Shown: piece by piece, positions 12,905 through 27,702 of the stretch | How the letters are laid out: each line of letters begins with the position of its first letter | Numbering within the stretch: position 1 is the stretch's first letter | DNA from: a virus | Lineage: Duplodnaviria > Caudoviricetes | Strand: one strand, 5' to 3' | Virus record (IMG/VR): IMGVR_UViG_3300044681_000510 | Span: 1 to 62,111 of that record | DNA: 62,111 nucleotides | Notes under the pieces: model-generated | What the model was told of the DNA's origin: nothing | The model's input: only the letters and a program-made list of their open reading frames with translations | The model's database searches: none | Made by a program: the position numbers and the translations under genes

Positions 12905-13091
12905 TAAATCTCTCCTTTTTCTGCTTTTCATAAGCCAATCTTAACTTTTGTACAACATCTAGTTGACCAGCAGCAAACGCAGATTCCCTAGTAAAATCCT
13001 CAGAGCTTAAATCCTGACTGTATGGAAGAGGCTTGTATATTTTTTCCAGTATCAGTACCAGTTCCTCGCTTATTTGTGGAAATTGATTCAT
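12897..13091 (-). CDS. Conserved small T7-like hypothetical protein
   Basis: FPQISEELV..LE..Y...AGQ.DVV..L pattern seen upstream of portal in T7-like phages. Confidence 0.7.
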   Translation of the reverse strand: MNQFPQISEELVLILEKIYKPLPYSQDLSSEDFTRESAFAAGQLDVVQKLRLAYEKQKKERFNV

Positions 13092-13233
13092 TATGTAGGT
13101 TCTTTAAATTATTAATTTCTGTTTGTAATTCTTCAACCTTTTCAAAAAGCGTTTTAACTACTAAAGCTAATTCTGGGGTTGATAAAGTTGTTCCTAGTTT
13201 AAGTCTTGTTGACATTTGTTCTCTTGAATACAT
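13000..13233 (-). CDS. Hypothetical protein
   Basis: AAGGA RBS; short coiled coil; overlaps next gene. Confidence 0.55.
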   Translation of the reverse strand: MYSREQMSTRLKLGTTLSTPELALVVKTLFEKVEELQTEINNLKNLHNESISTNKRGTGTDTGKNIQASSIQSGFKL

Positions 13234-13242
13234 ATTAATTCC

Positions 13243-15126
13243 TTATGATAAATCTACAATTTCACAAGCACCAGCAGTACAGGCCATAGCATGAGAAGAC
13301 TTAGTTGAATCTGTCTTTTCGTATTCCTGTAACAACGACCAATCCACATCTACTTTTGGATATAGGTTGTATGTTCTAGCATCAATCTCTTCAAATGGAG
13401 CCTGAGCATAAACATGATCAGACTTTGGTAAAAACGAGATACCAGAAATTTCATTAAAGTTTTCATATACCCATTGTCCTATAGCTAGAAATTCATCATC
13501 TCCATAAGAGACTGTAATTGATGGTTTGTGGTGGCAGTATGATTGCTGATATGTATGCCATAGTTCAAGATGATCTAAAGCTCTAAGATTTTTTTGTGTA
13601 ATAGAATCTTCAGGAGCTTTCTGAGCAAATGTAAAGATACCAGTTGAATCTGGATTCATTACACAATCTTCACAAGGAACTCCAGCATCTTTCATAAACT
13701 GATACATAGGATCTTTCTTATCAATCCGTACCCGTCTATAATAGAAGTGAGAGTATCTTGGGTGTAGACCGCTAGATGAATCAGCAAGACAGCTTGTTGT
13801 TCCTTCTGGCTTAATACATGTAATTGATTTACTTGGATTAATTCCCAGTTTTTCGGACCACTCAAGATTTATTTTTACAGCATGTTCTCTAAGAGACTCT
13901 AGAGCATGAGCAAGCTTACCCATTCCCTTGGAGCCATTCATAAGAGAGTTATCAAAGATACCAGTCATTGATACTCCAAGTAGTCTTTCTTCTTTACAGT
14001 TGTTTGCCCAATCTTCAGAAAGATATGGGAAGTGGGTAAACATACTTTGGATAGTACCAATAATAGTAGCCATTTCAATTTTCTTTTTGATTGTGGTTAT
14101 TGTATCCTCTTGTCTTAAGACAATCGTACTGAGATTGCAGAATTGATTCGGCCTGAGAATTATTTCTGAACATGGGTTTGTACCATACTCTATGTCGCTT
14201 CTTCTTCCAGACTTTTCCGCTATTATTTTCATCGCGTGACGATTGCATATTCCTCGTTCTCCTGAGTGAGAGTTATACAATTCAGTCCATTCCTCAAGGA
14301 ACTGACCAAGGGGTGGACGATTCTGATAGATTGCTGAGTTATTAGCAAGTGCTCTATGACCACTAGATGCCCACCAAGAACCGCTTTTACACTTGGCCAT
14401 CTCACGATCAGATAGGTCTGAAAGTGAAATCATAGCAGACCTACGAACACCACCAACAATAACTGATTGAGCAATCTTACAACAAATATCGTGACATTCT
14501 AATGCTGTTAATTTACGACCTTTTGCAGCATAGAATGTTTGTGTGACAAATCTAAATACTTCTTCCAAGGGACCGGGACCACTTGCACGACCACCAAATG
14601 TCTTTAGTTTAGCACCTGCTGGTCTTACTCTGCTAGTATCCCATTTTGGATGAACACCCTCATATAGGTTGCATATTAGATCAAATAAAGAATCACACCA
14701 ACCTTCTCTTGAATCAGGTACTTCAATAATCTTATTAAAATTCTTTTCAATTTTATTAGGAACTACTGGTAGTTTTTCTGTACAACGATGTTCAACAGAA
14801 TATCCTACACCAGTACCACACATAAGAATATACATAAGAGTACTGAATGATCTTGCTGAATCAATATCTAAGTAAGAACAGTTATATAAAGCAGTGTGAT
14901 CTCTATCTAGTGCTGGTCCAGCAGTCATAAGACCGCGCATACTTGGTAATACTTGTAGATTTAAAATAGCATCTTTAATATCTGGTCTAGTTGCTAATTG
15001 TGGTGCTTTGCTTGTAAAGTAATCCCACCAACGGTCTACTGTTTCTGACCAAGTTTCTCTACGATTCTCTGACTCAATCCAACGACTATAACGACTTAGT
15101 GCAATAAAGTTTTGAAATGTATTCAT
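13243..15126 (-). CDS. nrdJ: Class II (B12-dependent, monomeric) ribonucleotide reductase
   Basis: LPSMR, LYNCSY, GGVRRSA, TNPCSEI catalytic motif, IKPEGT, C-terminal CTAGAC. Confidence 0.93.
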   Translation of the reverse strand: MNTFQNFIALSRYSRWIESENRRETWSETVDRWWDYFTSKAPQLATRPDIKDAILNLQVLPSMRGLMTAGPALDRDHTALYNCSYLDIDSARSFSTLMYILMCGTGVGYSVEHRCTEKLPVVPNKIEKNFNKIIEVPDSREGWCDSLFDLICNLYEGVHPKWDTSRVRPAGAKLKTFGGRASGPGPLEEVFRFVTQTFYAAKGRKLTALECHDICCKIAQSVIVGGVRRSAMISLSDLSDREMAKCKSGSWWASSGHRALANNSAIYQNRPPLGQFLEEWTELYNSHSGERGICNRHAMKIIAEKSGRRSDIEYGTNPCSEIILRPNQFCNLSTIVLRQEDTITTIKKKIEMATIIGTIQSMFTHFPYLSEDWANNCKEERLLGVSMTGIFDNSLMNGSKGMGKLAHALESLREHAVKINLEWSEKLGINPSKSITCIKPEGTTSCLADSSSGLHPRYSHFYYRRVRIDKKDPMYQFMKDAGVPCEDCVMNPDSTGIFTFAQKAPEDSITQKNLRALDHLELWHTYQQSYCHHKPSITVSYGDDEFLAIGQWVYENFNEISGISFLPKSDHVYAQAPFEEIDARTYNLYPKVDVDWSLLQEYEKTDSTKSSHAMACTAGACEIVDLS

Positions 15127-15666
15127 TTAGTTTTTTCCTGTTGATCCAAAGCCACCACTACTTCTTATTGTATCGTTTAAACTATAAACATGCTTTAAAA
15201 AAGGTGAAAAATAATCTAATATAACCAATTGGGCTATTCTATCACCATTAAGTAAAGTATGTCGTTTTGACGAAGAAAAGTTTCTAAGGGGAACTAAAAT
15301 TTCTCCCCTATAATCTGAGTCAATTACTCCAACGCCATTTGTTAAACCAAGTGGAGATTCAACAGATAGGCCGGATCTAATGAATAAAAGACCTACTTTA
15401 CCCTTAGGAATTTCTATTGAAACTCCTGTAGGAACTAGGTGTGTTTCTCCGGCCCTAAATAAAAGGTTGTTTGAAGACAGGTTAGCAATTAGGTCAAAAC
15501 CAGCCGAACCCTCTGTTTTTTGTTTAGGGGTATATCTTGAAACAATGTTTACTGTATTGGGGTGTTTTTTCTTTTTCTTTTTCTTTAGACCCCCTAGCAA
15601 TCTTGTCTTCAAAGCGGTTATTTTAGTCCGCATTAAGTAAATATAGTAATGTATTGTATTAAACAT
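15127..15666 (-). CDS. dut: Trimeric dUTPase with basic N-terminal extension
   Basis: SAGFDL, RSGL, GVIDSDYRGE, GDRIAQL, RSSGGFGSTG (motifs I-V). Confidence 0.93.
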   Translation of the reverse strand: MFNTIHYYIYLMRTKITALKTRLLGGLKKKKKKKHPNTVNIVSRYTPKQKTEGSAGFDLIANLSSNNLLFRAGETHLVPTGVSIEIPKGKVGLLFIRSGLSVESPLGLTNGVGVIDSDYRGEILVPLRNFSSSKRHTLLNGDRIAQLVILDYFSPFLKHVYSLNDTIRSSGGFGSTGKN

Positions 15667-15686
15667 TGCTTAACCCTTTCTGAAAA

Positions 15687-15706
15687 TATCTATTAGCTCC
15701 AACAAT
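15687..15706 (-). promoter_or_regulatory. Putative phage RNAP promoter (degenerate copy)
   Basis: ATTGTTGGAGCTAATAGATA resembles the ATAGTTGGRGCTAnnGATA repeat, with one extra base. Confidence 0.45.
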
Positions 15707-16457
15707 TGGGAGTCCATAGTTTAATTTCTTTATCAATATCTTTTGATGTTATTTTCTTCTCTGAAACATCCCCACATCTTAGGATTCTTACACATCTAGC
15801 CATAGCTAAACAATAATCATAGGTATATTTTTCTTTATTTCTATCTTTAGCTTGTTCATATGTAGCCAAAACCGCTTGAGTCCAATCTGATTTAGATACA
15901 CTATCTATTAATTTATTTGCTTTGGCTGGACCCATTTTCCATATACCCGGAATATTATCGGTCGTATCTCCGGTAAGCCATTGGATATGGAAGTTTCTAT
16001 CGGCTTCTTCTTCAGATACTAGGACTGGCTCTAGCTCCTTATCCGGGTTCCAATGCCATCCCGGTACACTGCGAAGATCCTTGTCGATTGTGACCGCTAT
16101 ACAGCTTCTAGAGGGGCTTGAGGCAGCTATCCCCATGAAATCATCTGCCTCAATTTGATTACCACACACAAAGTGTTGGCACTCCTCTTTCAGGACATCT
16201 TCTACTTCAAGCCTACATTCAGGGCTTTGTTTTCCAGTATCCCTGTGGGCTTTATAAGAGTCCCATAACTTTCTTCTAAAGTTTTTTGATCTAGGACAAG
16301 AAAAAGCGACTAATACTTCAGTCACCTTTGGGGGTGTCCACTTTACTATGGCATCTTTAACCCAGTCCTCTACATCCTCAATACCTTCAGAATCAGCTCT
16401 AAAGGCAATACGATAAGCTAAAATATCTCCATCAAGAATTGCCTTCATTTTTTTCAT
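15693..16457 (-). CDS. 5'-3' exonuclease (T7 gp6-like)
   Basis: LDGDILAY, NFRR, YKAHR, EADD, DKDL, GDTTDNIPG. Confidence 0.92.
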   Translation of the reverse strand: MKKMKAILDGDILAYRIAFRADSEGIEDVEDWVKDAIVKWTPPKVTEVLVAFSCPRSKNFRRKLWDSYKAHRDTGKQSPECRLEVEDVLKEECQHFVCGNQIEADDFMGIAASSPSRSCIAVTIDKDLRSVPGWHWNPDKELEPVLVSEEEADRNFHIQWLTGDTTDNIPGIWKMGPAKANKLIDSVSKSDWTQAVLATYEQAKDRNKEKYTYDYCLAMARCVRILRCGDVSEKKITSKDIDKEIKLWTPNCWS

Positions 16458-17184
16458 CCTCTTCTTCTAAAGCTTTTTCCAGAATATCCATAAGTTCATT
16501 TATGATTTTTTCTGGATCTGGATCTCTATCTTCTCGTCTAGCGGTACATAGTTCACACCCACACTCATCTTGATTTTCTGAAAAGTTAATAGTTAACCCT
16601 AACCACTTATTCATATTAGCTAGACAATGATTTTTTAATGCATTTAAAGTACTATCGTTGGTAACTGTATATTTAAACATCTCTAGATAGTCTTTATTTC
16701 CAGCCTCAATATGGTTTGCTAGTTCTTCGCTTGGGTGCATTCTCCACTCAGCATCTTCATCAATAATTCGTCTTTTACCCTGCTTGACAAAAATAGATAC
16801 AGCGTTTAAGTCTCTAGCTGCTGCAACCTCATTTACATAACGACAGTCATCTACAATAATAATTCTCTCTTTCCAAAACTCGGCATTTAGTAATAGATCG
16901 TTTGTTTCTTCTTTTTCAATTTCTTTTACACGCTTCTTCCATTCATTTACCCAATGATCTGGGTTTTTAACCCGCATGGATTCGCCTAGTGTTTGGCAAA
17001 AGTTTCGATATTCGGCTGGATTACTATCCTTAGTAAGTCCCTTTGCTTTTGCGGCTTCTTTAATACCATGAGCAAAAGGAACAATCTTGGGGGTAAGATT
17101 ATTTTCTAATGCAAACTCAGCAATAATATTAGCTACGGTTGTCTTACCAACTCGTCCTTTACCGCCTATAATAACTGTAATCAT
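16432..17184 (-). CDS. Deoxynucleoside monophosphate kinase
   Basis: P-loop GGKGRVGKTT, PFAHGIKE, IIVDDCRYVNE, HPSE; Cys-containing acidic tail. Confidence 0.75.
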   Translation of the reverse strand: MITVIIGGKGRVGKTTVANIIAEFALENNLTPKIVPFAHGIKEAAKAKGLTKDSNPAEYRNFCQTLGESMRVKNPDHWVNEWKKRVKEIEKEETNDLLLNAEFWKERIIIVDDCRYVNEVAAARDLNAVSIFVKQGKRRIIDEDAEWRMHPSEELANHIEAGNKDYLEMFKYTVTNDSTLNALKNHCLANMNKWLGLTINFSENQDECGCELCTARREDRDPDPEKIINELMDILEKALEEEDEKNEGNS

Positions 17185-17632
17185 TTCTTACCTCCTCAAG
17201 AAAACGATGGGGGATATGACCCATCTTATAGTTATAACCAAGATTTTTATTAAGCCAGTTTTGGGCTAAAGTACCACAATGATTAACTTTAAAACCAAGC
17301 CATCTCCCAACTAAATACCATAACAACACTTTATACCAAGTTGATATCTTTTGTGTATCAGTTATATGTTTAATTTGTTCTAAACATATTTCTTTAGTCC
17401 CCATAAACTTTTTATATAATAACTTAGCACCTCTTTTTTCTAACATATATTCTGTAATTAATCTACATCGCTCTCCATCCACCACCATCGGAGAGAGACT
17501 AGAAAAAGGAAGATCAAAAATAATTCCAACATGATTGACTCTAGAGAAGGTGCTCGATTTAATGAGTAAAGTTCTCCACCATCCAAGTCCTTTTGAATTG
17601 TCATAAAATGCAAGGTATATCTCCGCTTTCAT
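17159..17632 (-). CDS. Putative permuted papain-like (NlpC/P60, YiiX-type) enzyme
   Basis: SRVNHVGI (His) precedes NHCGTL (Cys), the permuted catalytic order. Confidence 0.5.
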   Translation of the reverse strand: MKAEIYLAFYDNSKGLGWWRTLLIKSSTFSRVNHVGIIFDLPFSSLSPMVVDGERCRLITEYMLEKRGAKLLYKKFMGTKEICLEQIKHITDTQKISTWYKVLLWYLVGRWLGFKVNHCGTLAQNWLNKNLGYNYKMGHIPHRFLEEVRNDYSYYRR

Positions 17633-17640
17633 AGAAATCC

Positions 17641-19338
17641 TTAATGAGTCTCACTCCAATTAGATCCAATAGAATAGTTTGCATCAATCCGTATCTTAAG
17701 CCCCAACTTTTGGCCAGCTTCGGTAGCAGCAGCAGTTACAGTTTTACCAACCTCATCTGCAATATCTTTATGACATGAATATTGTAATTCATCGTGTACA
17801 TAAGCAACCTGTTTAACTTTATCGCCAAACTTTTTCTTAAGATTTACATAAGCAATACACATCCACAATTTACTAACAATAGCACCAGATCCTTGTAATA
17901 GTGTATTTAATGCTGCGTGTTCGGATCTAACAGGAACAATTCTTCCATCTGGTAATTGAACACCTTTAATTTTGGTAACAGAAAACTTAACTTCTTGCTG
18001 AACACGGTCTAGTGCAGGAATTTCTTTTTGAAACTTAGCTCTAATTTGACTACCAGCATTACGATTACCGCCGATAATTTTACCTAACTTTTCATCACCA
18101 GCACCATAGCAGTAGGCATAGATAAAGGTTTTGGCTGCATCTCTATTAGGAAGACCGGCTGCTTTTTGATTGTAAGTGTGAATATCATCATTAAGAATCT
18201 TATCACCATACTTACCGTTGTCGTATTTAGCCATAAAATGGGATAGCATTCTTAATTCAAGACCTTGTAAGTCTGAGCCTACTAATACATGCTCCGGCTC
18301 TAGGGGGCAGAATAAAGCCCTAGCACGCTTGTCTTTACTAACCTGAGCCATGTTAGGCTGGCTATGGGTGCAACGCCCTGTAGCGGCTCCCTGTGCGTTT
18401 ACAAGCCCGTGAACACGACCGTCCCTAGAGTGTTGGATTCTTGTGTTCCAATCCTCAACCTGACCCATTAATTTAATACAATCAAAATATTGAACTAGCT
18501 TTTTTGCTTCGGGATAATCCAGTTTAGACAAAACTGATTCATCAACCTTGGGATTACCTTTATCTGTAAGGGGGGCTTCCCACCCATACTTATCAAACAA
18601 TCTACTTGCGATTTGCTGACGGCTACCGGGATTAAAAACTTCAATTTTATCCTTAAGACGCTTACCTGTTTTGGTTGACCATCTTTCTTCAACTTTGTCT
18701 GGAAAGATAGTTCGCATCTCATCTTCGATCTGAGCCTTCTCAATAAGAAGATCTCCGATTAGGCGGTCGCCGCCAGCAGCATCATAACCAAAACCAGTAA
18801 AGGTTTGTTCAGAAAGTATTTTAGATACTAGGTGTTCAAACTTAATTACTCGCTCTGGGACTTGACAGACAGATTGTTGATAGCGAAAGATATCTGCCGT
18901 AAGCATAACATCCTGAGTACAGTATACTAACATCTCATCACTAAACTTTTCCCACCCTCCTTTATAATCAATTTTATCATTCTTAAGGAATTTACCCCAA
19001 GATTGTAATGAGTTATCTCCAAGAGGATGATTATTAATATCTGGATACATTAGCTTTGATATGATTAATGTATCGTGATATTTAGTACACTTAAAGTTAC
19101 CAAGAATCTTACGAATAGCAGAAATATCAAAGAAAATATTATGACCGATTATTAGGGATGCTTTATTTAAAAGACTTGGTAGGGTCACAATATTTTCTGG
19201 AGTAAACTTATAAGTAGTACCTGAGTCAAGATCGTGTGCTACAGCACAGTGAATAATAGTAGCTTCTGGAGTAATTTTGTTACCATCAATAGCAACTTCA
19301 TTTAATCCATTAGCTTCAACATCAAGTACTAGTCTCAT
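17641..19338 (-). CDS. Family A DNA polymerase with 3'-5' exonuclease (T7 gp5-like)
   Basis: DVEANG, GHNIFFD, YCTQD, TGRCTHSQPNMAQV, DLQGLELR, KTFIYAYCYG, HAALNTLLQG, VHDE. Confidence 0.96.
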   Translation of the reverse strand: MRLVLDVEANGLNEVAIDGNKITPEATIIHCAVAHDLDSGTTYKFTPENIVTLPSLLNKASLIIGHNIFFDISAIRKILGNFKCTKYHDTLIISKLMYPDINNHPLGDNSLQSWGKFLKNDKIDYKGGWEKFSDEMLVYCTQDVMLTADIFRYQQSVCQVPERVIKFEHLVSKILSEQTFTGFGYDAAGGDRLIGDLLIEKAQIEDEMRTIFPDKVEERWSTKTGKRLKDKIEVFNPGSRQQIASRLFDKYGWEAPLTDKGNPKVDESVLSKLDYPEAKKLVQYFDCIKLMGQVEDWNTRIQHSRDGRVHGLVNAQGAATGRCTHSQPNMAQVSKDKRARALFCPLEPEHVLVGSDLQGLELRMLSHFMAKYDNGKYGDKILNDDIHTYNQKAAGLPNRDAAKTFIYAYCYGAGDEKLGKIIGGNRNAGSQIRAKFQKEIPALDRVQQEVKFSVTKIKGVQLPDGRIVPVRSEHAALNTLLQGSGAIVSKLWMCIAYVNLKKKFGDKVKQVAYVHDELQYSCHKDIADEVGKTVTAAATEAGQKLGLKIRIDANYSIGSNWSETH

Positions 19339-19348
19339 AGGCTACTCC

Positions 19349-20404
19349 TTATTCAAAGAAATCATTAAGCTGTCTATTAACTCTAACGAATGTAGTTCTC
19401 TTAGGTAGATCTTTTAGTTTATCAGCACCAACATAAGTACACGCTGATCTTACACCACCTAGAATGGACTTCATTACTTCTGATATTGGGCCAGTATATG
19501 GAACATCTACGGTCTTACCTTCCGATGCTCTGTAGGTAGCCACACCTCCAGAATACTTTTCCATAGCCGTATCTGATGACATTCCATAAAACCTCTTGTG
19601 GGTAATTGTATCACTTTCGTTATATACATCCTCACCAGACGCTTCATTAGTACCAGCAAACATACCACCAATCATAACAAAATCTGCACCCGCTCCAAAT
19701 GCCTTGGATACATCGCCCGGACAAGTACATCCACCGTCTGAGAGAACATATCCATTAAGTCCGTGTGCGGCATCAGCACACTCCATGATACACGATAGCT
19801 GCGGATATCCAACACCAGCAATCTTTCTAGTTGTACACACAGAACCGGGGCCAATACCAATCTTGATAATATTAGCACCAGCTAACAATAAAGCTTCAGT
19901 CATTTCGCGTGATACAACATTACCAGCAATAATTGCTTGGTTAGGAAATAAACCCCGCACTGTTGACACATACTTTACAAACTTTTCAGTATAACCATTA
20001 GCAACATCAATACAAATAAATCGGATGCTTGGGTATAGATTAATAATTTGTTGAGCCTTATCAATCTCAGCAAAGTTATCTTTACCCATTCCCATCGTAT
20101 ATACTATATTATCCGAAAGATTACCAGCAATAATATTTGCTTTTTTCCATTCATCTACACTATAGTATTTGTGTATTGCAGTTAGTGAGTCAAAACCAGC
20201 AAGCTCTGTAGCAACATCCCAATTACCAATAGTATCCATATTACTAGCAACAATAGGAACTCCAGTCCATTGCATAAGACCTGATGGTAGACTAAACTTA
20301 AATGTTCTTAACATAGACACTTCGCTTCTACTTCTTAAGGTAGAACGCTTTGGTCTAATTAGAACATCACGAAAATCTAATTTAATATCTTCTTCTACTT
20401 TCAT
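19349..20404 (-). CDS. guaC: GMP reductase
   Basis: KLDFRDVLIRPKRSTLRSRS, SNMD, DVANGY, GIGPGSVCTTR, SDGGC, FYGMSS, YRASEG, GGVRSACTY. Confidence 0.95.
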   Translation of the reverse strand: MKVEEDIKLDFRDVLIRPKRSTLRSRSEVSMLRTFKFSLPSGLMQWTGVPIVASNMDTIGNWDVATELAGFDSLTAIHKYYSVDEWKKANIIAGNLSDNIVYTMGMGKDNFAEIDKAQQIINLYPSIRFICIDVANGYTEKFVKYVSTVRGLFPNQAIIAGNVVSREMTEALLLAGANIIKIGIGPGSVCTTRKIAGVGYPQLSCIMECADAAHGLNGYVLSDGGCTCPGDVSKAFGAGADFVMIGGMFAGTNEASGEDVYNESDTITHKRFYGMSSDTAMEKYSGGVATYRASEGKTVDVPYTGPISEVMKSILGGVRSACTYVGADKLKDLPKRTTFVRVNRQLNDFFE

Positions 20405-21447
20405 ACGATCTCCTGTGGAATTGTTTCTGGGCTATTAGAAAAATAGACACAACTTTCATCAACCCAAGTAGCATTATCAATCTGCGCTCTAATAAAGTCT
20501 TGCATTTCTTCAAGAGTATTGAATGTTACAGTATCACCGGGCATTCCATAGTAAAGTTTGAAGATACCGCATTCATCAAGAACATCGCCTTTATTAAGAA
20601 TAACTGTTGTAGTACCGCTCATATAAATAGCCTTTAAAAGTCTATTTAAATCTAGAAAATCAACCTTACGCTGGCGACCAGTAGTAGTGCCGTATTCCTT
20701 ACCTATAGCCCCAATCTTTGAGCGTTCAGGACAACTTAAGAAAGACTCAGGAAATCGTGGATCGTTTCCAGATCTAGTATCATACATCTTTGCAACACCG
20801 ACAACCTCTCCAATATCTCTAAAAGAAAAACCAAGAGAGCAAGCCGAATAAGGTAAAGTCTCTGAACTTGTTGTATACGGTGGATTACCTTGATTGATGT
20901 CTAGCCACATACCCTGAGCACCCTCACAAAGAAGTCTATCACTACCGCAGAATTCTCTATCTTCAGGCCATAGTAAATTCTCCATCTCAACAACCTTTAG
21001 AAAATTCTTTGCTAACGCAGACTTTCGTAACGCCTTATCTGAATAACAAGGAGCAATACCACAACCAGTAGTTCCTAGTTCTTTATGAAGATACATCTCA
21101 TCATAACGAATGTTTTCTGGTGTAATAAAACTAGCGTGTGGGTGAATCCAAAGTTTTTTCATTGGATTAAATCCAGCATTTTCTAGATATCTAATTTCTT
21201 TCTGAAGTTTAAAGTAATCAATAACACAATTAGGACCAATGATACATTCTTTATCGTGAAAAATACCACTAGGAATTTGGTGTGTCTTATATTTATTACC
21301 GTTTACATATACAGTATGACCTGCATTTGGTCCACCATTCCAACGGCATACATACTTGTAAGGAAACTTTTGACAATAACCAGATACAACCTTACCTTTA
21401 CCCTCATCCCCCCAAGCAAGACCAAATACAATATCAACTATTGCCAT
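20401..21447 (-). CDS. purA: Adenylosuccinate synthetase (short type)
   Basis: WGDEGKGK with catalytic Asp, GGPNAGHT, GTTGCGI, EGAQG, PYTTSS, EYGTTTGRQR, NKGD. Confidence 0.92.
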   Translation of the reverse strand: MAIVDIVFGLAWGDEGKGKVVSGYCQKFPYKYVCRWNGGPNAGHTVYVNGNKYKTHQIPSGIFHDKECIIGPNCVIDYFKLQKEIRYLENAGFNPMKKLWIHPHASFITPENIRYDEMYLHKELGTTGCGIAPCYSDKALRKSALAKNFLKVVEMENLLWPEDREFCGSDRLLCEGAQGMWLDINQGNPPYTTSSETLPYSACSLGFSFRDIGEVVGVAKMYDTRSGNDPRFPESFLSCPERSKIGAIGKEYGTTTGRQRKVDFLDLNRLLKAIYMSGTTTVILNKGDVLDECGIFKLYYGMPGDTVTFNTLEEMQDFIRAQIDNATWVDESCVYFSNSPETIPQEIV

Positions 21448-21448
21448 C

Positions 21449-23203
21449 TTAAACTCCTTGTGTTTGAGTTACATTATTAGGATCAAATACAACTTGACCA
21501 CCATCATCTATTGCAAAACCAACTTCCCTAAGTCTACCCGTTTTTCTATCGTAATACAATGCAGTAGCAATACCAGCCCTACCAGTAAGACGATTTTTAA
21601 GAACACGAATCATTGTAGTATTGGCAATAGTTTCATCAGGATTTTGACGATCACGCTCTAGAGCAATAACAGTATTTGGTACAGAAGATAGAGCACCAGA
21701 ACCACGAAGATCCTGTAGTGTAATTCTGTCACCTTCTTCATATGCTTTTTCTGTCTTCTTTAGCTGAGATACAATATCAATATGAACACCTGTACGAACA
21801 GCAATAGATCGTAGTTCCTTCATAAGTGTATCAATAATAATACGCTCTGAGTTACCACCATCAACATCTTTATCATGCATGCCGATAAGACCAGCAGCGG
21901 CAGCAGTAATATGGTCAAGAACAATAACATCAACCTTAAGACTAACGGCCATGTATTCCATGCGTGCTAGTAGGTTCTGCATTGCATTATTACCAAGATG
22001 ATCATAGATAAAGAAGTTAGTACCACTAAGCTTACGCTTTGCTCCTGCATACTCTTCATCAGAAAGATCGTCAATAAAGTCCATGTTGATTGGGTTCTTA
22101 CCAAGCTTATTACGAAGATCATTCATCATACGACAAGCACGAATAGCCCGTACTGGTTTATTTAGTATGAGACTAATCATATCATCCATTGTTTCTTGTG
22201 GAGATTCCTCAAGCATAATAGCACCAACTGATCTACCTTCTTCAAGATGGTGAAGAATTAGCTCACGAAGAATGGTAGACTTACCACTACCAGTACCACT
22301 AGCCCAAAGACTAATTTCACCTGATCTTTGACCAATAAGAAACTCGCTAAGGCTATCGAATGGGAATGGATAAACTCTTACATTAGCAATATCTTCTCCA
22401 TCATCAGCAATAGATGAAACATGTAAAATCTCATCTGGAGAATACATTTGTGCTTCCCATACAGCGGATACAACAGCTTTACCGTTGTTGTTCATTAAAC
22501 ATTCATTAGCATCTTTGAATGGAAGCTTCGCAATCTTACACTTACCGGGCGGTAGTATTTCAGCCGCTTGCTTAGTAGCAGTTCTGCCGGGTTCATCATT
22601 ATCGAAGCAAAGCACAATCTCATTGTAAGAGCAAAGGAATTCATAGTTATCCTTGATAGCCTTAACAGCAGATTGAGCACCATTAGGGATGGATACAACA
22701 GGCCAAGTGCCACCAAGTAGTTGATTAATTGTCATACAATCAATCTCACCCTCAGTTACAATAATACGCTTACCGCCAGTCTTCCAAAGATGCTGACCAA
22801 ATAGCTCTACATTCTTACTGTTACCCTTCCAGTAAAATTGCTTGTTTGGCCCTCGTAAGTGTTGTGCAACAAGTTCACCTGATCTATAATAGTTTGAGAT
22901 TTCTACATCCTTACCATTTACCTTGGCGGACTCATAGCCATACAAACGACAAGTCTTATCATCAATATTACGATGAGTAAGAGGGACTACAGTTCCTTTA
23001 ATTGGCTTAAAGTCTGTAACCTGAGTAAAAGAAGTTTCTTGTTCCATAGGTCTAGTTACTCCATCCTTTCCTTCATAGTATTGACAAGCAAAACAGTAAA
23101 AGTGATCTGTATATTCTACAAGATTGTCGCCCTTATGGTCGTTACCAGAAGCAGAACATCTTGGACACCTGCTACGCTTACCAGTAAATGTACTATTATT
23201 CAT
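21449..23203 (-). CDS. DNA primase-helicase (T7 gp4-like)
   Basis: Zn finger CPRC...CFAC, TEGEIDC, FDNDEPG TOPRIM, GTGSGKS, LDHI, DLRGSG, KNRLTG. Confidence 0.96.
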   Translation of the reverse strand: MNNSTFTGKRSRCPRCSASGNDHKGDNLVEYTDHFYCFACQYYEGKDGVTRPMEQETSFTQVTDFKPIKGTVVPLTHRNIDDKTCRLYGYESAKVNGKDVEISNYYRSGELVAQHLRGPNKQFYWKGNSKNVELFGQHLWKTGGKRIIVTEGEIDCMTINQLLGGTWPVVSIPNGAQSAVKAIKDNYEFLCSYNEIVLCFDNDEPGRTATKQAAEILPPGKCKIAKLPFKDANECLMNNNGKAVVSAVWEAQMYSPDEILHVSSIADDGEDIANVRVYPFPFDSLSEFLIGQRSGEISLWASGTGSGKSTILRELILHHLEEGRSVGAIMLEESPQETMDDMISLILNKPVRAIRACRMMNDLRNKLGKNPINMDFIDDLSDEEYAGAKRKLSGTNFFIYDHLGNNAMQNLLARMEYMAVSLKVDVIVLDHITAAAAGLIGMHDKDVDGGNSERIIIDTLMKELRSIAVRTGVHIDIVSQLKKTEKAYEEGDRITLQDLRGSGALSSVPNTVIALERDRQNPDETIANTTMIRVLKNRLTGRAGIATALYYDRKTGRLREVGFAIDDGGQVVFDPNNVTQTQGV

Positions 23204-23501
23204 TAAGACCAAGCTCCTCATCTAACTCTGCTAATTTATCCATACACTTTTTACACTTTGATTCTGGAAGTAACCATGCATTTTTACCATTATCAAAACA
23301 ATCCCACCCCCACTTTTCAGCAACCTTTTGGGGATCTGCGGGAGATAACTGTTTGCAGTACAAGGCTCGTACCCTGTCACGATCTTTGATAAGAACATCC
23401 ATTGCTAATGCAAGATTATTCCTATCTGTTTCAAGATGCTCGCATCGAGATTCAAGTTCTTCAATTTGTAACAAAGCCCAACTCATAGGATCATCACTCA
23501 T
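23196..23501 (-). CDS. Hypothetical protein
   Basis: Coupled overlaps on both sides; coiled coil and CKKC. Confidence 0.6.
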   Translation of the reverse strand: MSDDPMSWALLQIEELESRCEHLETDRNNLALAMDVLIKDRDRVRALYCKQLSPADPQKVAEKWGWDCFDNGKNAWLLPESKCKKCMDKLAELDEELGLNE

Positions 23502-23809
23502 AGTTTTAATACCTTGCTTTGTATTGATGTTGTAATTTCTACAGTAAGATAACCTTCCTGTGTAGGCTCAATTGCAATAACACGACTAATTTTTTCCTTT
23601 TTTGAACCACCAACAAAGAATGACATTGAATCTCCGGTACAGATAAAAGGACCGCCCTCATAATCAATATAATAATTACCGTCGTTATCTTGCCCTCCTC
23701 TACAATATACCGAAGGTCCATCAACAATGTACTTGTTTCTAGCAACTTTAGTAAATACTCTTGGTTGCTGATATCTAGACATAATTGTTTTAGTTTCGCC
23801 TATCTTCAT
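23498..23809 (-). CDS. Hypothetical protein
   Basis: ATGA overlaps at both ends; DYEGGPFI motif. Confidence 0.65.
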   Translation of the reverse strand: MKIGETKTIMSRYQQPRVFTKVARNKYIVDGPSVYCRGGQDNDGNYYIDYEGGPFICTGDSMSFFVGGSKKEKISRVIAIEPTQEGYLTVEITTSIQSKVLKL

Positions 23810-24159
23810 AACTCAACCATTTCCCCAACTTCGTTGGTATAAAAGATTTTATCGAATAAATTGATACACCAAGGCATACAAAACTTGCATGGTTTAGACA
23901 TTCCAATATGACCAGTCTTACTAAATCTATAGTTCATAAGAACAAGCTTATCAAAATTACCGTCCATTTTTCTAAAAGCATCTAACTCAGAATGAAGATA
24001 TGGTAACATATAACCAAGCTCAACAGTCTTTGGGTGCGTTTTCCAGTTATTAGTACCAACAGTAATAAGTTTATTCTTACGGACTATAAGAGAAACATGA
24101 ACACGATCACGCTGAACAGTTTCGGATATTTTTCTAGCAAGTTCAAGCCAAGATTCCAT
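23806..24159 (-). CDS. Zn-dependent cytidine/deoxycytidylate deaminase family protein
   Basis: VGTN, HSE (HxE) and SKPCKFC (PCxxC) motifs; start refined to MESWL after GGAG. Confidence 0.8.
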   Translation of the reverse strand: MESWLELARKISETVQRDRVHVSLIVRKNKLITVGTNNWKTHPKTVELGYMLPYLHSELDAFRKMDGNFDKLVLMNYRFSKTGHIGMSKPCKFCMPWCINLFDKIFYTNEVGEMVEL

Positions 24160-24619
24160 TAGACATCTCCGTATACCATGACGGCGTTTCGGTCCTCTTC
24201 CAGTAAGCAATATCTTTCTTATCATTTACATAATAGGTACGATAAGCAAGAACGGCATTAGTATTTTTATATTTATCTGGCATAGCCTGAGCAAACTCAG
24301 TTAAACCAAGATCAAGAATAGGTGGTCTATTAATTTTACACCACTCAATAACATCACTGGATTTGTGATGCTTACCAAAACGCTTGGTATATTCAAAACC
24401 AATTTCTTCGCCATGTTCAATTAACCAGTTATAGTTTGATATACTTGTTCTTGTCCAAATAGTGCATGGATGGTTTTTGTGTGCAACTTTATATGGAGCA
24501 GCCCCGTTATGAACAGTACACAACATTTGAGCAGATTCAAGAACCATCTTTACAACATGCTTATCACAAAGGTATCTAGCAGCTTGTCTTGGACAATTAT
24601 CAAGCACGAAGATATTCAT
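24143..24619 (-). CDS. Pyrimidine-dimer DNA glycosylase (DenV-like) family protein
   Basis: MNIFVLD..P..AA...CDKHVVKM.LESAQML, HKNHPC..W, NY.WL, AYR.YY. Confidence 0.8.
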   Translation of the reverse strand: MNIFVLDNCPRQAARYLCDKHVVKMVLESAQMLCTVHNGAAPYKVAHKNHPCTIWTRTSISNYNWLIEHGEEIGFEYTKRFGKHHKSSDVIEWCKINRPPILDLGLTEFAQAMPDKYKNTNAVLAYRTYYVNDKKDIAYWKRTETPSWYTEMSNGILA

Positions 24620-25244
24620 TAAGTGCCCTCCAACTCATGGGGAAAAGGTTAGAACAAATATTACTAACAGCAGTAGCGTATTCCCTAACTTCAGCCTGTG
24701 CGGTTTCGTGTGATCGCAGGGAAACCATCCTAGCCCACGCATACAACGAACCAGTCCAAATCCACTCTGTGAACATAGACTGCGGCAGAATGGCTCTAGC
24801 TTGCTCAGGACACACGCCACTCTCTAGAAGTCTATCGTACATGATTAGGGCAGCGGAGCACATATTCTTATAATCAAGAAGCAACTCTGGATTATCAATA
24901 AACTCATCCATTGAACCTTGCTTCTTATTAGCAGCCCTTCTTCTAAAGTTATCTGGAACCCAACAATCTGGTGTATAGTCAACATAACGACGGCTAACTT
25001 CATTCCAAGCAAAGCCAACCTGATGCTTTGCTAACTGTCGTGCGATAAAAACAGGAGCCTTAAATCTCATTTTAATTGATGTATGAGCAAAAGGACTCCA
25101 ATGATTATGCTTGGCTAAATAATTAATTAGCTTATTGTTTTGTTCAGTTTCATATTGAGTAGAGATCTTATCAAAAGAAACTCTTGCAGCATCAACAACA
25201 GACCCGTCATTTCCCATATGATCAATATATTCAACAATAGTCAT
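24600..25244 (-). CDS. thyX: Flavin-dependent thymidylate synthase
   Basis: AARVSF, HWSPFAH, IARQLAKH, NEVSRRY, EQARAILP, AQAEVR. Confidence 0.93.
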   Translation of the reverse strand: MTIVEYIDHMGNDGSVVDAARVSFDKISTQYETEQNNKLINYLAKHNHWSPFAHTSIKMRFKAPVFIARQLAKHQVGFAWNEVSRRYVDYTPDCWVPDNFRRRAANKKQGSMDEFIDNPELLLDYKNMCSAALIMYDRLLESGVCPEQARAILPQSMFTEWIWTGSLYAWARMVSLRSHETAQAEVREYATAVSNICSNLFPMSWRALNEYLRA

Positions 25245-25260
25245 AATTAATCTCCTTTAA

Positions 25261-25343
25261 ATCGTTGGGGCGGATTTGCACCGCCATCTTTATACACGCT
25301 TGGGGTAAATGTATACTGTTTTCCTAGCTTAAACTACCAAAGA
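25261..25343 (-). ncRNA. tRNA-like element with elongated anticodon arm
   Basis: Acceptor TCTTTGG/CCAACGA (one mismatch), D-stem GTTT/AAAC with GG in loop, T-arm GGCGG-TGCAAAT-CCGCC, 27-nt anticodon arm; fills the rusA-thyX gap. Confidence 0.65.
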
Positions 25344-25348
25344 CACAC

Positions 25349-25726
25349 TTATTTGGGATTGTTTATTCCAAGTATGAAGTAACCACTAGAGCCGACTTCA
25401 GCCCACTCCTTAGTTACATACATGGATACGATCTGCGAATCGTCTTCCCATAGTTTACCATTTAAAATATCAAACACCGCTTTTGCGTAATTATCCAAGT
25501 CTGCTCTTGGATGATCTCTAGCCGTCTTTTTTGGACGCTTTACATATAACTCCAAAGTAATGCATAGGGGTCCACTAAGTAATTTTCTATCAGTTCCAAT
25601 TACTTCGTAGACTTTTGCAGAAGCTTCTTCTCTAAAGTCTTTGTAAGGACCGGAGTAATAAGCTCCCCACTTACCAACCCTAGGTCTAGAAGCAGCAACG
25701 GGTGATATATCAAACTTCCATTCCAT
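25349..25726 (-). CDS. rusA: RusA-family Holliday junction resolvase
   Basis: RPR, DLDNYAKAVFDIL, WEDDSQIV. Confidence 0.9.
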   Translation of the reverse strand: MEWKFDISPVAASRPRVGKWGAYYSGPYKDFREEASAKVYEVIGTDRKLLSGPLCITLELYVKRPKKTARDHPRADLDNYAKAVFDILNGKLWEDDSQIVSMYVTKEWAEVGSSGYFILGINNPK

Positions 25727-26253
25727 CAGAACGGAATATCATCATCTGTAACTTCTTCTGTCTCGACTGTGGATGCAGACTTATTGCTGGCAGCACCAAC
25801 AAAACCACCTTCAACTGGAGCGAATCCACTGCTGGAACCGCCACCAATATTATTCTTTTCGATGATTTGAACACCGTTAAGATATAGACTGAGAGAGTTA
25901 TCACGACTAAGAACCATAGGCTGAAGCTTTAGGCGAACTTTATCTCCACCAAAAGCAACAACTTCTGTTTCCTTAGCAAGAGCATCAACACAAGGGAACT
26001 TAACCTTGTCAACATGAGTCTTGCTCTTAAACTTTACATACTTAACGCCCTCTTTTTCAATCATACCATTAATCTTCTTTGCCCCACTCTTTTTGAGTAT
26101 TTCAGCAAGAGTCTTTTGAAGACCCTTATCAGCGATAACGGTAATGTTATGGTTAGCGGAGTTTTCGCCAAAGTTAGTATCTGGCTTCAGTAAATTACTC
26201 CACTTAACTTCAAGAGTTTCAGTTACTAGGGGCGGCAACTTCGTTGACTTCAT
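25726..26253 (-). CDS. ssb: Single-stranded DNA-binding protein (T7 gp2.5-like)
   Basis: WSNLLKPDTNF, SLYLNGVQII, acidic tail ending DDDIPF. Confidence 0.85.
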   Translation of the reverse strand: MKSTKLPPLVTETLEVKWSNLLKPDTNFGENSANHNITVIADKGLQKTLAEILKKSGAKKINGMIEKEGVKYVKFKSKTHVDKVKFPCVDALAKETEVVAFGGDKVRLKLQPMVLSRDNSLSLYLNGVQIIEKNNIGGGSSSGFAPVEGGFVGAASNKSASTVETEEVTDDDIPF

Positions 26254-26428
26254 TTGAATTCTCCTTATTCATATTTGTAGTAGCAGCAGACTGAGCAGCA
26301 ATAAGACGAGTAACCTGTTCATTAATATTACTAGTAATTCCAGTTAGAACTGTACTAATATTTGAAAGATACTCAATTACGCTTACGCCAGTTACAGTTG
26401 GTCCATTTTCAATATTTCCTGTATTCAT
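26219..26428 (-). CDS. Hypothetical protein
   Basis: AGGAGG RBS; first gene after the promoter repeat. Confidence 0.6.
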   Translation of the reverse strand: MNTGNIENGPTVTGVSVIEYLSNISTVLTGITSNINEQVTRLIAAQSAATTNMNKENSNEVNEVAAPSN

Positions 26429-26452
26429 TACTTTTCCTCCTTTCTGATAGCA

Positions 26453-26473
26453 CCTATCAGTAGCCCCAACTAT
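26453..26473 (-). promoter_or_regulatory. Putative phage RNAP promoter
   Basis: ATAGTTGGGGCTACTGATAGG, identical 21-mer at 33549-33569; intergenic, upstream of the replication block. Confidence 0.7.
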
Positions 26474-26793
26474 CAGGGCCAGTCGTTATAGAAAACTTTT
26501 CCATTTCCGTCCTTATCAAGAACTTCAACAGCATTGGCTTCATAGGCCGATAACAAACGCATACCAAGTTCAGTCATTCCAAGATCTTTCCAATTAGTTT
26601 CAATACACTTTTCAATATTAGACCTCATCCAAGACTCGTCGCATACAGTATAATCTGGTTGTTTAGCATAACTTGGGTAAAGCTCTGCTTCACTAAATGG
26701 TTGGGATAGTGGAAGCCACATTCTAACAGTAAACTTTGGAGTAACAAACTTAAACATTTCTTCAGTGAGAACAGTAAATCTTTTTTGTTCCAT
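26473..26793 (-). CDS. Hypothetical protein
   Basis: GAGG RBS; 106 aa within operon. Confidence 0.65.
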   Translation of the reverse strand: MEQKRFTVLTEEMFKFVTPKFTVRMWLPLSQPFSEAELYPSYAKQPDYTVCDESWMRSNIEKCIETNWKDLGMTELGMRLLSAYEANAVEVLDKDGNGKVFYNDWP

Positions 26794-26801
26794 GTTTTAC
26801 C

Positions 26802-27461: not shown

Positions 27462-27462
27462 G

Positions 27463-27702
27463 TTACTCCTTTTCAATGTAAATGTTGATGTTCATATCTG
27501 TTTGAAATGGAACATCCTTTAACATCATCTCTGCATGACAATTATCTAAAAAGATAGCAGAAAATCTTCCGGTAGGAAACCAAAGATTTATGGTTTTCTT
27601 TATCTCATCAGATAAAGCAAGATCAACTACTCTTTTTACTGCGACCTCCATATCGCCTTCGCTTTCTACCTTTAGTATTTTTCTTCTTCTTTTTTTTGCC
27701 AC
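27463..27702 (-). CDS. Hypothetical protein
   Basis: 79 aa within operon, basic N-terminus. Confidence 0.55.
   Translation of the reverse strand: MAKKRRRKILKVESEGDMEVAVKRVVDLALSDEIKKTINLWFPTGRFSAIFLDNCHAEMMLKDVPFQTDMNINIYIEKE

What the first reader, a model, noticed from the sequence alone, without database searches (positions are those of the whole stretch)
13243..25244. Nucleotide re-balancing toolkit: converting host G and C into A and T
Seen: adjacent, stop/start-overlapping purA and guaC between primase and polymerase; a Zn deaminase, thyX, dUTPase, dNMP kinase, class II RNR and gp6-like exonuclease. Known: GuaC makes IMP from GMP and PurA commits IMP to AMP (host PurB finishes), so the pair converts G to A; dCMP deaminase plus ThyX converts C to T; T7-like phages recycle host DNA. 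Inference: an AT-rich phage (sample line 45721-45780 is 16/60 GC) rewires both purine and pyrimidine pools of a GC-rich host. The U34 tRNAs and the GC-rich leader point the same way. I do not know this complete two-arm set from T7-like phages.
Basis: partly seen in the sequence, partly recalled or inferred. Interest (0 to 1): 0.85.

Follow-up and report, generated by a model that had tools for sequence, protein, structure and literature searches.

The report
Phage guanine-to-adenine and cytosine-to-thymine enzyme set
A freshwater T7-like phage with AT-rich DNA carries its own GMP reductase, a compact virus-type adenylosuccinate synthetase and a small cytosine-type deaminase, a trio that recurs in unrelated aquatic viruses and probably shifts nucleotide supply from G and C towards A and T, although its host and the enzymes' substrates are untested.

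Summary
guaC (19349-20404) passes both NCBIfam GMP-reductase cut-offs. purA (20401-21447) overlaps its start by ATGA. It is a short PurA that keeps the cellular W-G-D, TTGR and NKxD motifs, so it is not the Z-base enzyme PurZ.

The "Zn deaminase" (23806-24159) is a confident cytidine-deaminase fold. Its family profile is nearest to dCMp deaminases.

New here:
- About 21 contigs of this phage lineage keep the cassette.
- All viral short PurAs sampled form one clade, apart from five bacterial PurAs and from PurZ.
- The same trio (GMP-reductase-family gene, short PurA, small deaminase) recurs in two other groups of large phages.
- The PurA-GuaC pair alone also occurs in contigs labelled giant-virus.
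- Cultured phages with a GMP-reductase-type gene (Cr30, XacN1, Xoo-sp13, RAS14, phiYS40) have 33-50% GC around the gene. Their hosts are about 64-69% GC (recalled).

The G-to-A and C-to-T reading is therefore the best explanation. The "GC-rich host" part stays untested, because I could not infer the host. The purine arm works on ribonucleotides, not on host-DNA dGMP.

This scan has noted guaC+purA before on at least seven other viral genomes. I found no paper describing it.

The parts
19349..20404 (-). guaC: type-1 GMP reductase, 351 aa (GMP + NADPH -> IMP + NH3)
   Evidence: It passes both NCBIfam equivalog cut-offs: NF003470 517 bits against 397, and TIGR01305 498.1 against 492.15. It scores 446 bits to human GMPR2 (2a7r), and the GSVCTT and YRASEGK segments are kept in the printed alignment. 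It is 57% identical to Salmonella GuaC. It is present in 31 of 31 lineage loci.
20401..21447 (-). Short viral adenylosuccinate synthetase (vPurA), 348 aa (IMP + Asp + GTP -> adenylosuccinate)
   Evidence: PF00709 scores 245 bits. The PurA equivalog scores 229.5 bits, below its cut-off of 402; the PurZ model scores only 103.8 against 300. The alignment to the 339-aa Pyrococcus PurA is unbroken. W-G-D, NAGHT, TTGR and NKGD are kept, whereas phiVC8 PurZ has F-G-S, VTKK and NFCN. It sits in a single viral clade.
23806..24159 (-). Small CDA-fold zinc deaminase, 117 aa, probably acting on dCMP or another cytosine compound. The listed ORF runs on to 24225.
   Evidence: H56, E58, P90, C91 and C94 are invariant in 60 family members. 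The family profile's best PDB hit is cyanophage S-TIM5 dCMP deaminase, E 8e-8. 41 of 60 members hit PF00383. The AlphaFold2 model has pLDDT 93.6. Foldseek finds blasticidin-S, cytidine and dCMP deaminases at TM about 0.6.
24600..25244 (-). thyX: flavin-dependent thymidylate synthase (dUMP -> dTMP)
   Evidence: PF02511, E 1.4e-46, 159 bits.
15127..15666 (-). dUTPase (dUTP -> dUMP), with an N-terminal extension that holds a lysine run
   Evidence: PF00692, E 2.6e-24; translation.
13243..15126 (-). B12-dependent class II ribonucleotide reductase of the monomeric NTP-reducing (RTPR) type
   Evidence: PF21995 E 2.9e-9 and PF02867 E 4.1e-9. TIGR02505 RTPR scores 289.8 bits, below its cut-off of 340.
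16432..17184 (-). dNMP kinase
   Evidence: PF21448 E 9.9e-7; phrog_139 E 4.2e-22.
15693..16457 (-). 5'-3' exonuclease (T7 gp6 / FEN type)
   Evidence: PF02739 E 5.1e-9, 36.5 bits against cut-off 34.3.
17641..19338 (-). Family A DNA polymerase; flanks the pair on one side
   Evidence: PF00476 E 4.8e-44.
21449..23221 (-). T7-type primase-helicase; flanks the pair on the other side
   Evidence: Toprim_2, DnaB_C and Helic-prim_T7_N domains.

Best explanation
The replication module of this 62-kb, 36% GC freshwater T7-like phage encodes two short routes that raise the supply of A and T precursors.

Purine arm:
1. GuaC reduces GMP to IMP.
2. The translationally coupled short PurA condenses IMP with aspartate, using GTP, to give adenylosuccinate.
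3. The host's PurB releases AMP. The phage record has no PurB.
4. Host kinases make ATP.
5. The phage's B12-dependent NTP reductase makes dATP.

Pyrimidine arm:
1. A small CDA-fold deaminase makes a uracil nucleotide from a cytosine one, most likely dCMP to dUMP.
2. The dUTPase adds dUMP from dUTP.
3. ThyX makes dTMP.
4. The dNMP kinase starts re-phosphorylation.

Shown: gene identities, intactness, coupling, conservation, and recurrence of the trio in other viruses.

Inferred: substrates, direction of flux, and the benefit. I take the benefit to be matching nucleotide pools to an AT-rich genome, whatever the host's GC.
For: Enzyme identities:
- GuaC passes two curated equivalog cut-offs.
- PurA keeps the cellular catalytic and GTP-specificity motifs and lacks the PurZ signature. 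The signature is taken from passages of PMC12884076 and bioRxiv 10.1101/2025.10.22.683976.
- The deaminase family is nearest to dCMP deaminases.

Coupling and conservation:
- There is an ATGA overlap.
- Both ORFs are intact, and the overlap is kept across nearly all lineage loci.
- GuaC and PurA have GC3 of 0.24, like the rest of the phage.

Recurrence in other viruses:
- 28 of 33 non-lineage viral loci whose GuaC is at least 60% identical have a short PurA within 6 kb. 20 of those 33 also have the deaminase family.
- 72 of 79 PurA-seeded loci have an IMPDH/GMPR-family gene within 10 kb, and 65 of 79 have the deaminase family, mostly next to that gene.
- Two contigs labelled giant-virus MAG have the pair side by side.

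Composition:
- Carrier loci are AT-rich, with median GC of 0.29, 0.36 and 0.40 in the three groups.
- Cultured phages with such a gene have locus GC of 0.33-0.50. Their hosts are about 64-69% GC (recalled).
- The phage's tRNAs match its preferred A-ending codons: AGA is 63% of Arg codons and GAA 81% of Glu codons.

No PurB, DatZ-like or MazG gene is in the record.
Against: - No enzyme assay, pool measurement or expression data exists.
- The host is unknown.
- PurA scores below NCBIfam's PurA cut-offs. It has Cys where cellular PurA has Arg in the TTG-R-GI motif, and Lys for the second Arg of TTGRxRR.
- The window's own deaminase sequence hits no curated family, and its substrate is open.
- 27 viral loci with a more distant GuaC have no PurA within 6 kb, and 7 of 79 PurA loci have no GuaC-family gene within 10 kb.
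- None of the five cultured phages checked has PurA.
- I had no background GC distribution for viral contigs, so 'carriers are AT-rich' is not tested against a null.
- The carriers are related through horizontally shared genes, so the counts are not independent events.
Confidence: 0.6

Rival explanations
1. General purine salvage or adenylate boosting. The pair supplies a GMP-to-AMP route, or more IMP-to-AMP capacity, that streamlined freshwater hosts lack. It would raise ATP and dATP for replication without any link to base composition.
For: The chemistry is the same, so all the identity evidence applies. Type-1 GuaC was found in only 1 of 401 Actinomycetota genomes sampled, so many potential hosts may lack it. 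The very low-GC carriers have Pelagibacter myophages as nearest cultured relatives, which suggests there may be no GC gap.
Against: It does not explain why a cytosine-type deaminase travels with the pair in three viral backbones. It also does not explain why every cultured GuaC-type phage checked is far more AT-rich around the gene than the GC I recall for its host.
Confidence: 0.2
2. Counter-defence or host manipulation. The pair would lower GTP or GMP (and so (p)ppGpp or guanine-based signals), or rebuild adenine nucleotides after a host defence has destroyed or deaminated ATP or dATP.
For: Only the reaction directions: GMP is consumed, and IMP is turned back to AMP. No tool result points to this reading specifically.
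Against: The genes lie inside the replication and nucleotide module between primase and polymerase, not among early anti-host genes. No defence-related neighbour was seen.
Confidence: 0.07
3. A deoxy-level shunt. The viral GuaC and short PurA accept dGMP and dIMP, so that dGMP from degraded host DNA becomes dAMP directly.
For: Short PurA relatives (PurZ) did evolve to use a deoxynucleotide, according to passages of PMC12884076. The viral PurA clade sits on a long branch of 2.4 changes per site and has substitutions in substrate-side motifs. A 5'-3' exonuclease and a dNMP kinase are next door.
Against: GuaC is an ordinary type-1 GMP reductase that passes equivalog cut-offs. The phage carries its own ribonucleotide reductase, which fits a ribonucleotide route. 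No residue evidence for loss of 2'-OH recognition was obtained.
Confidence: 0.08
4. The purA homologue is a PurZ, and the phage makes 2-aminoadenine (Z) DNA.
For: It is a short (348-aa) phage PurA homologue next to a family A polymerase. PHROGs names its family '2-aminooxy adenylosuccinate synthetase'.
Against: Asp is kept where all 147 phage PurZ have Ser, according to a passage of PMC12884076. It has W-G-D, TTGR and NKGD, against F-G-S, VTKK and NFCN in phiVC8 PurZ. The PurZ model scores 103.8 bits against a cut-off of 300. It is outside the PurZ/PurZ0 branch. The record has no DatZ-like or MazG gene. An adjacent GMP reductase would also drain the guanine pool that PurZ needs.
Confidence: 0.02

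Closest known systems
Cellular purine interconversion branch GuaC -> PurA -> PurB (for example E. coli guaC, purA, purB)
   Same: The same two enzyme families and, by motif, the same chemistry. GuaC passes the curated GMP-reductase models.
   Different: The genes are virus-encoded, adjacent and translationally coupled inside a T7-type replication module. PurA is a compact 330-350-aa form belonging to a clade seen here only in viruses. PurB is left to the host.
PurZ / PurZ0 Z-genome cluster of phages (phiVC8, S-2L, Gordonia and Arthrobacter phages)
   Same: A short phage-borne PurA homologue placed beside replication genes.
   Different: The catalytic Asp, TTGR and the NKxD guanine motif are retained. 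There are no DatZ or MazZ partners, and it falls in a separate clade.
Classical phage pyrimidine set (T4 cd, td and dUTPase; cyanophage S-TIM5 dCMP deaminase, PDB 4p9c)
   Same: A CDA-fold deaminase plus thymidylate synthase plus dUTPase to make dTMP.
   Different: The deaminase is a minimal 117-aa form with no curated family hit of its own. It travels with GuaC and PurA in other viruses.
GMP reductase genes of cultured AT-rich phages on GC-rich hosts (Caulobacter Cr30, Xanthomonas XacN1 and Xoo-sp13, Stenotrophomonas RAS14 and CM1, Thermus phiYS40 and TMA)
   Same: A phage-borne GMP-reductase-type gene in genomes far more AT-rich around the gene than the GC I recall for their hosts.
   Different: They are only 28-43% identical to the window's GuaC. 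The five checked (Cr30, XacN1, RAS14, Xoo-sp13, phiYS40) have no PurA. They are large myoviruses or jumbo phages, not T7-like.

Membership tests
GMP reductase, type 1 (GuaC; NCBIfam NF003470 / TIGR01305) | Whole-protein score over the curated equivalog cut-off | tested here: met
   517.1 bits against 397, and 498.1 against 492.15.
GMP reductase, type 1 (GuaC) | Catalytic Cys-x-Thr loop and the downstream Glu (residue roles recalled from the GMPR literature) | tested here: met
   GSVCTTR and YRASEGK align identically with human GMPR2. C190, T192 and E295 are invariant in 19 viral GuaCs.
Adenylosuccinate synthetase (PurA; TIGR00184 / NF002223) | Whole-protein score over the curated equivalog cut-off | tested here: not met
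   229.5 bits against 402, and 219.8 against 395.55. The match comes in two stretches because the protein lacks the middle and C-terminal segments of bacterial PurA. It does pass Pfam PF00709, at 245 bits against 27.
Adenylosuccinate synthetase (PurA) | Catalytic Asp in the GDEGKGK loop, His in NAGHT, TTGR, and the (N/T)KxD guanine-specificity motif (E. coli numbering recalled; Asp13 cited from PMC12884076) | tested here: met
   All are present in the window protein and in 28 of 28 family members aligned. Two differences: Cys or Gln replaces the Arg of TTG-R-GI, and Lys replaces the second Arg after TTGR.
PurZ / PurZ0 (NF038379) | Ser in place of the catalytic Asp; F-G-S loop; loss of NKxD; score over the cut-off | tested here: not met
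   Asp is kept, the loop is W-G-D, and NKGD is kept. The score is 103.8 bits against 300. It lies outside the PurZ branch.
dCMP / cytidine deaminase zinc-binding family (PF00383) | H(C)xE ... PCxxC zinc motif and CDA fold | tested here: met
   H56, E58, P90, C91 and C94 are invariant. The model has pLDDT 93.6 and Foldseek places it in the CDA fold.
dCMP / cytidine deaminase zinc-binding family (PF00383) | Pfam match for the protein itself | tested here: not met
   The window protein has no PF00383 hit even at E up to 1. 41 of 60 family members do hit it.
dCMP deaminase specifically | Activity on dCMP rather than cytidine, dCTP or a purine | not testable with these tools
   The best profile hits are dCMP deaminases: 4p9c at 8e-8 and 2hvv at 1.8e-5. 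Guanine and guanosine deaminases come only at E of 0.02 or more.
ThyX (PF02511) | Pfam gathering score | tested here: met
   159.1 bits against 24.8.
Adenosylcobalamin-dependent ribonucleoside-triphosphate reductase (TIGR02505) | Equivalog cut-off | tested here: not met
   289.8 bits against 340.05. It is the best-scoring RNR model by far, and the B12 insertion domain PF21995 passes at 37.6 against 27.

The most novel reading that the evidence does not exclude
GMP reductase, the virus-only short PurA and the minimal cytosine-type deaminase form a mobile three-gene 'GC-to-AT converter'. It has moved horizontally between T7-like podoviruses, T4-like myoviruses, other large phages and giant viruses. 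It is what lets such viruses keep genomes far more AT-rich than the nucleotide pools of their hosts. The short viral PurA clade may also be the stock from which PurZ arose.
Probability: 0.3. Interest if true: 0.78.

Novelty: new variant of a known kind. Interest (0 to 1): 0.6.

Why it matters
Phages are usually more AT-rich than their hosts, and the metabolic means of sustaining that gap are poorly known.

A portable enzyme set that turns G into A and C into T would give a concrete and testable mechanism. It would also add purine interconversion to the list of viral auxiliary metabolism, and explain why a compact PurA lineage is so common in aquatic viromes.

A second use is practical. Pfam and PHROGs lump true PurA-type phage enzymes with PurZ. 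The motifs used here separate them, which matters when Z-genome phages are predicted from sequence.

Tried and rejected
Host inference. All routes failed.
- The terminase and RNA polymerase are under 40% identical to those of any cultured phage.
- The closest cellular GuaCs are 55-61% identical and come from mixed phyla.
- The viral GuaC clade is sister to two Actinomarina/Acidimicrobiaceae single-cell genomes. However, only 1 of 401 Actinomycetota genomes sampled has such a gene, so I draw no host from it.
- One early ORF (36185-36574) has homologues almost only in cyanophages: 285 of 292 records. A second early ORF points elsewhere: 5 records, from Roseobacter, Puniceispirillum and Prochlorococcus phages. 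The DenV-like gene is widespread. I rejected this as host evidence.

Other checks that led nowhere.
- Promoter and terminator scan of 13000-28000: 35 promoter-like sites against 48.8 expected, and 9 terminator-like sites against 7.3. This is not informative.
- The listing of cluster members gave no organism names.
- Sequencing runs: no RNA holder was listed. The DNA holders with a share of at least 0.26, other than possible sources, are freshwater (studies P3-P5) and one estuary metagenome.

Literature.
- 'GMP reductase' + adenylosuccinate + phage + 'auxiliary metabolic': 0 papers.
- 'GMP reductase' + bacteriophage + 'GC content': 4 papers, none on this idea.
- 'GMP reductase' + phage: 44 papers, of which I saw 25 in the listing; none on this.
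- adenylosuccinate + AMG + purine + virus: 5 papers.
- The YS40 search gave nothing useful. The guaC/purA/virus-encoded search was noise.
- PMC7029224 (passages) mentions a GMP reductase in one pelagimyophage group only.
- PMC9611531 (passages) lists adenylosuccinate synthetase hits to Pithovirus and Cedratvirus.
- Supplements were closed. Supplementary Fig. S8 of PMC12884076 may show phage PurA-type groups that I could not see.

Limits of the comparisons.
- The IMPDH/GMPR-family gene of the very low-GC phages could not be assigned. IMPDH and GMP-reductase models both score below their cut-offs. It lacks the Arg of the IMPDH Arg-Tyr pair in the printed alignment (the role of that pair is recalled).
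- I had no archaeal PurA, so the relation of the viral PurA clade to archaeal PurA and to PurZ is unresolved (open polytomy with long branches).
- I made no structure model of PurA.

Full report
WHAT THE WINDOW IS. The window is a whole IMG/VR virus record of 62,111 bases. It is classed linear and estimated 92% complete. It is 36.2% GC, with GC3 of 0.14-0.35 in its genes. It has a T7-type portal, RNA polymerase, primase-helicase, family A polymerase and terminase. No cultured phage is more than about 38% identical in the terminase or 30% in the RNA polymerase. Near-identical DNA occurs in runs labelled freshwater metagenome and one labelled estuary metagenome.

All genes lie on the minus strand.
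- The region has an RTPR-like B12 ribonucleotide reductase, dUTPase, 5'-3' exonuclease, dNMP kinase, polymerase, GuaC, PurA, primase-helicase, a DenV-like gene, ThyX, RusA and an SSB.
- The PurA stop and GuaC start overlap as ATGA. The PurA ATG follows the primase-helicase stop by one base, with AAGGAG just upstream.
- The deaminase ORF has no curated family hit of its own. A search of 1.8 billion representative proteins found 739 relatives of about 125 aa.
- An alignment of 60 of these has invariant H, E and P-C-x-x-C. Its profile finds dCMP deaminases first in the PDB: S-TIM5 at 8e-8, then S. mutans, human and T4. 41 of the 60 members hit PF00383.
- A confident model (pLDDT 93.6) has the cytidine-deaminase fold.

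PurA, NOT PurZ. Passages of PMC12884076 and of bioRxiv 10.1101/2025.10.22.683976 give the PurZ signature. The catalytic Asp is replaced by Ser, the loop reads F-G-S, and aromatic residues replace the guanine-specificity motif.
- The window protein and its relatives keep W-G-D-E-G-K-G-K, NAGHT, TTGR and NKxD, as a bacterial PurA does. phiVC8 PurZ and a Gordonia PurZ0 do not.
- The PurZ model scores 104 bits against a cut-off of 300.
- The record has no DatZ-like, MazG or PurB gene.
- The protein is short. It aligns without a break to the 339-aa Pyrococcus PurA. It falls below NCBIfam's bacterial PurA cut-offs.
- It also has Cys where cellular PurA has Arg in TTG-R-GI. Its activity is therefore inferred, not shown.

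GuaC IS ORDINARY. It passes both GMP-reductase equivalog cut-offs. It aligns end to end with human GMPR2 at 446 bits, with the catalytic segments intact.

CONSERVATION IN THE LINEAGE. I fetched 31 loci, from about 21 distinct contigs, of the same phage lineage.
- GuaC is in 31 of 31. PurA is in 29 of 31, and the two misses start inside guaC at a contig end.
- The deaminase is in 22 of 31, the rest being cut short.
- All ORFs are intact, and the 4-base overlap is kept in nearly all loci.
- PurA comes in three allele classes: 92-99%, 74% and 63-67% identity. GuaC and the flanking genes stay at about 87-100%.

THE SAME GENES IN OTHER VIRUSES.
- A search of 5.8 billion proteins found a large family of 330-aa PurAs at 50-55% identity. 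IMG/VR holds 493 confirmed stretches of it.
- I fetched 79 of these loci, with median GC 0.29. 72 have an IMPDH/GMPR-family gene within 10 kb.
- 65 of the 79 have a member of the small deaminase family, usually directly beside that gene.
- These are large phages with class I RNR. Their NrdA is closest, at 51-53%, to Pelagibacter myophages.
- IMG/VR also holds 223 relatives of the window's GuaC.
- Among 33 non-lineage loci with GuaC at least 60% identical (GC 0.34-0.49), 28 have a short PurA within 6 kb downstream. 20 also have the deaminase further downstream on the same strand.
- In one such locus the neighbours are a lysozyme, a SET-domain protein and a SpoU methylase, not a nucleotide-metabolism cluster.
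- Two contigs labelled giant-virus MAGs have PurA and GuaC side by side on opposite strands.
- Against this: 27 loci with a more distant GuaC (under 60% identity) have no PurA within 6 kb.

TREES.
- All 29 viral short PurAs sampled form one clade (SH-aLRT 99, stem 2.4 changes per site). It is apart from five bacterial PurAs and from PurZ/PurZ0.
- The T7-like lineage is monophyletic inside it and sister to the giant-virus contigs. I had no archaeal PurA, so deeper relations are open.
- GuaC of the T7-like lineage and of the second phage group form one clade (SH-aLRT 96).
- The closest cellular GuaCs are only 55-61% identical.
- Both genes have the phage's own codon bias. They are old viral residents that move between viral backbones.

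DOES HOST GC MATTER?
- I could not identify the host (see Tried and rejected).
- Indirect support comes from the tRNAs. Five of six read A-ending codons that are the phage's favourites.
- Among GenBank phages, full-length type-1 GuaC occurs in Caulobacter phage Cr30 (locus GC 0.378), Xanthomonas XacN1 (0.496) and Xoo-sp13 (0.397), and Stenotrophomonas RAS14 (0.425) and CM1.
- A more distant IMPDH/GMPR gene occurs in Thermus phiYS40 (0.330) and TMA.
- Their hosts are about 64-69% GC by my recollection, which no call checked.
- None of the five checked has PurA.
- This is only two or three independent lineages, so it is suggestive and no more.
- On the other side, the very low-GC carriers resemble phages of SAR11, whose GC is 30-35% according to PMC7029224.
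- My reading is that the driver is the virus's own AT-rich genome. A GC-rich host would sharpen the need but may not be required.

MECHANISM AND ITS LIMITS.
- The purine arm is a ribonucleotide route: GMP to IMP to adenylosuccinate. Host PurB then gives AMP, and phosphorylation followed by the phage's NTP reductase gives dATP.
- By known chemistry it cannot use dGMP from degraded host DNA.
- Substrates, flux and benefit are all inferred.

NOVELTY.
- The enzymes are textbook. The virus-borne pairing, the virus-only compact PurA clade and the travelling deaminase are not described in any paper my searches found.
- This scan has noted guaC+purA, sometimes with purB, on at least seven other viral genomes. 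Those are unchecked AI notes. My own counts on IMG/VR agree with them.
- What this window adds is the smallest carrier so far: a 62-kb T7-like phage with the pair fused into its replication operon.

Noticed in passing
window 20401-21447 and loci L003-L018, L100-L111: Within one phage lineage PurA exists in three allele classes (92-99%, 74% and 63-67% identity to the window). The adjacent GuaC, primase-helicase and polymerase stay at about 86-100%. This suggests repeated replacement of purA alone by recombination.
   Followed up: partly
window 36185-36574 (-): This early-region ORF matches Pfam Kyano_Gp96 (E 1.3e-16). Its homologues among GenBank phages are almost all in cyanophages: 285 of 292 records. 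That is a weak hint of a cyanobacterial host, and a second early ORF does not repeat it.
   Followed up: partly
L097 (7240-11002) and L098: Two viral contigs (GC 0.37-0.40) have ThyX, a class II RNR that is 66% identical to the window's, and a short PurA in a row. No GuaC-family gene lies within 10 kb.
   Followed up: no
L262 (G002, a Flavobacterium genome), 1486-2568: This is a second, short (360-aa) PF00709 homologue beside the normal PurA. It has an F-G-D loop and lacks TTGR. It sits on a very long branch near PurZ in the tree. Its function is unknown.
   Followed up: no
L214, L245, L251 (Actinomarina / Acidimicrobiaceae single-cell genomes): Their type-1 GuaC is the sister of the viral GuaC clade. 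Only 1 of 401 Actinomycetota genomes sampled has such a gene. This could be transfer between virus and cell in either direction, or viral DNA inside the single-cell assemblies.
   Followed up: partly
GenBank records PQ189377, PQ189285, PQ189357, PQ189333 (Vibrio 'PE002' elements): These records begin or end with a 78-aa fragment that is 64-65% identical to the C-terminus of GuaC. The elements look as if they are integrated at or beside the host guaC.
   Followed up: no
window 23498-23809 (-): The unknown 103-aa ORF next to the deaminase has 38-45% identical homologues in three loci of the second large-phage group (L132, L135, L136), upstream of their GuaC.
   Followed up: no
window 15127-15666 and 27623-28078 (-): The dUTPase has an N-terminal extension with a run of seven lysines. 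The 151-aa ORF upstream of the RNA polymerase ends in a similar lysine/arginine run.
   Followed up: no
L255 (Caulobacter phage Cr30) 1757-2224 and 7977-9023: Cr30 has an annotated CMP/dCMP deaminase 5.7 kb from its GMP reductase, near its class Ia RNR. This echoes the deaminase-GuaC association seen in uncultured phages.
   Followed up: no
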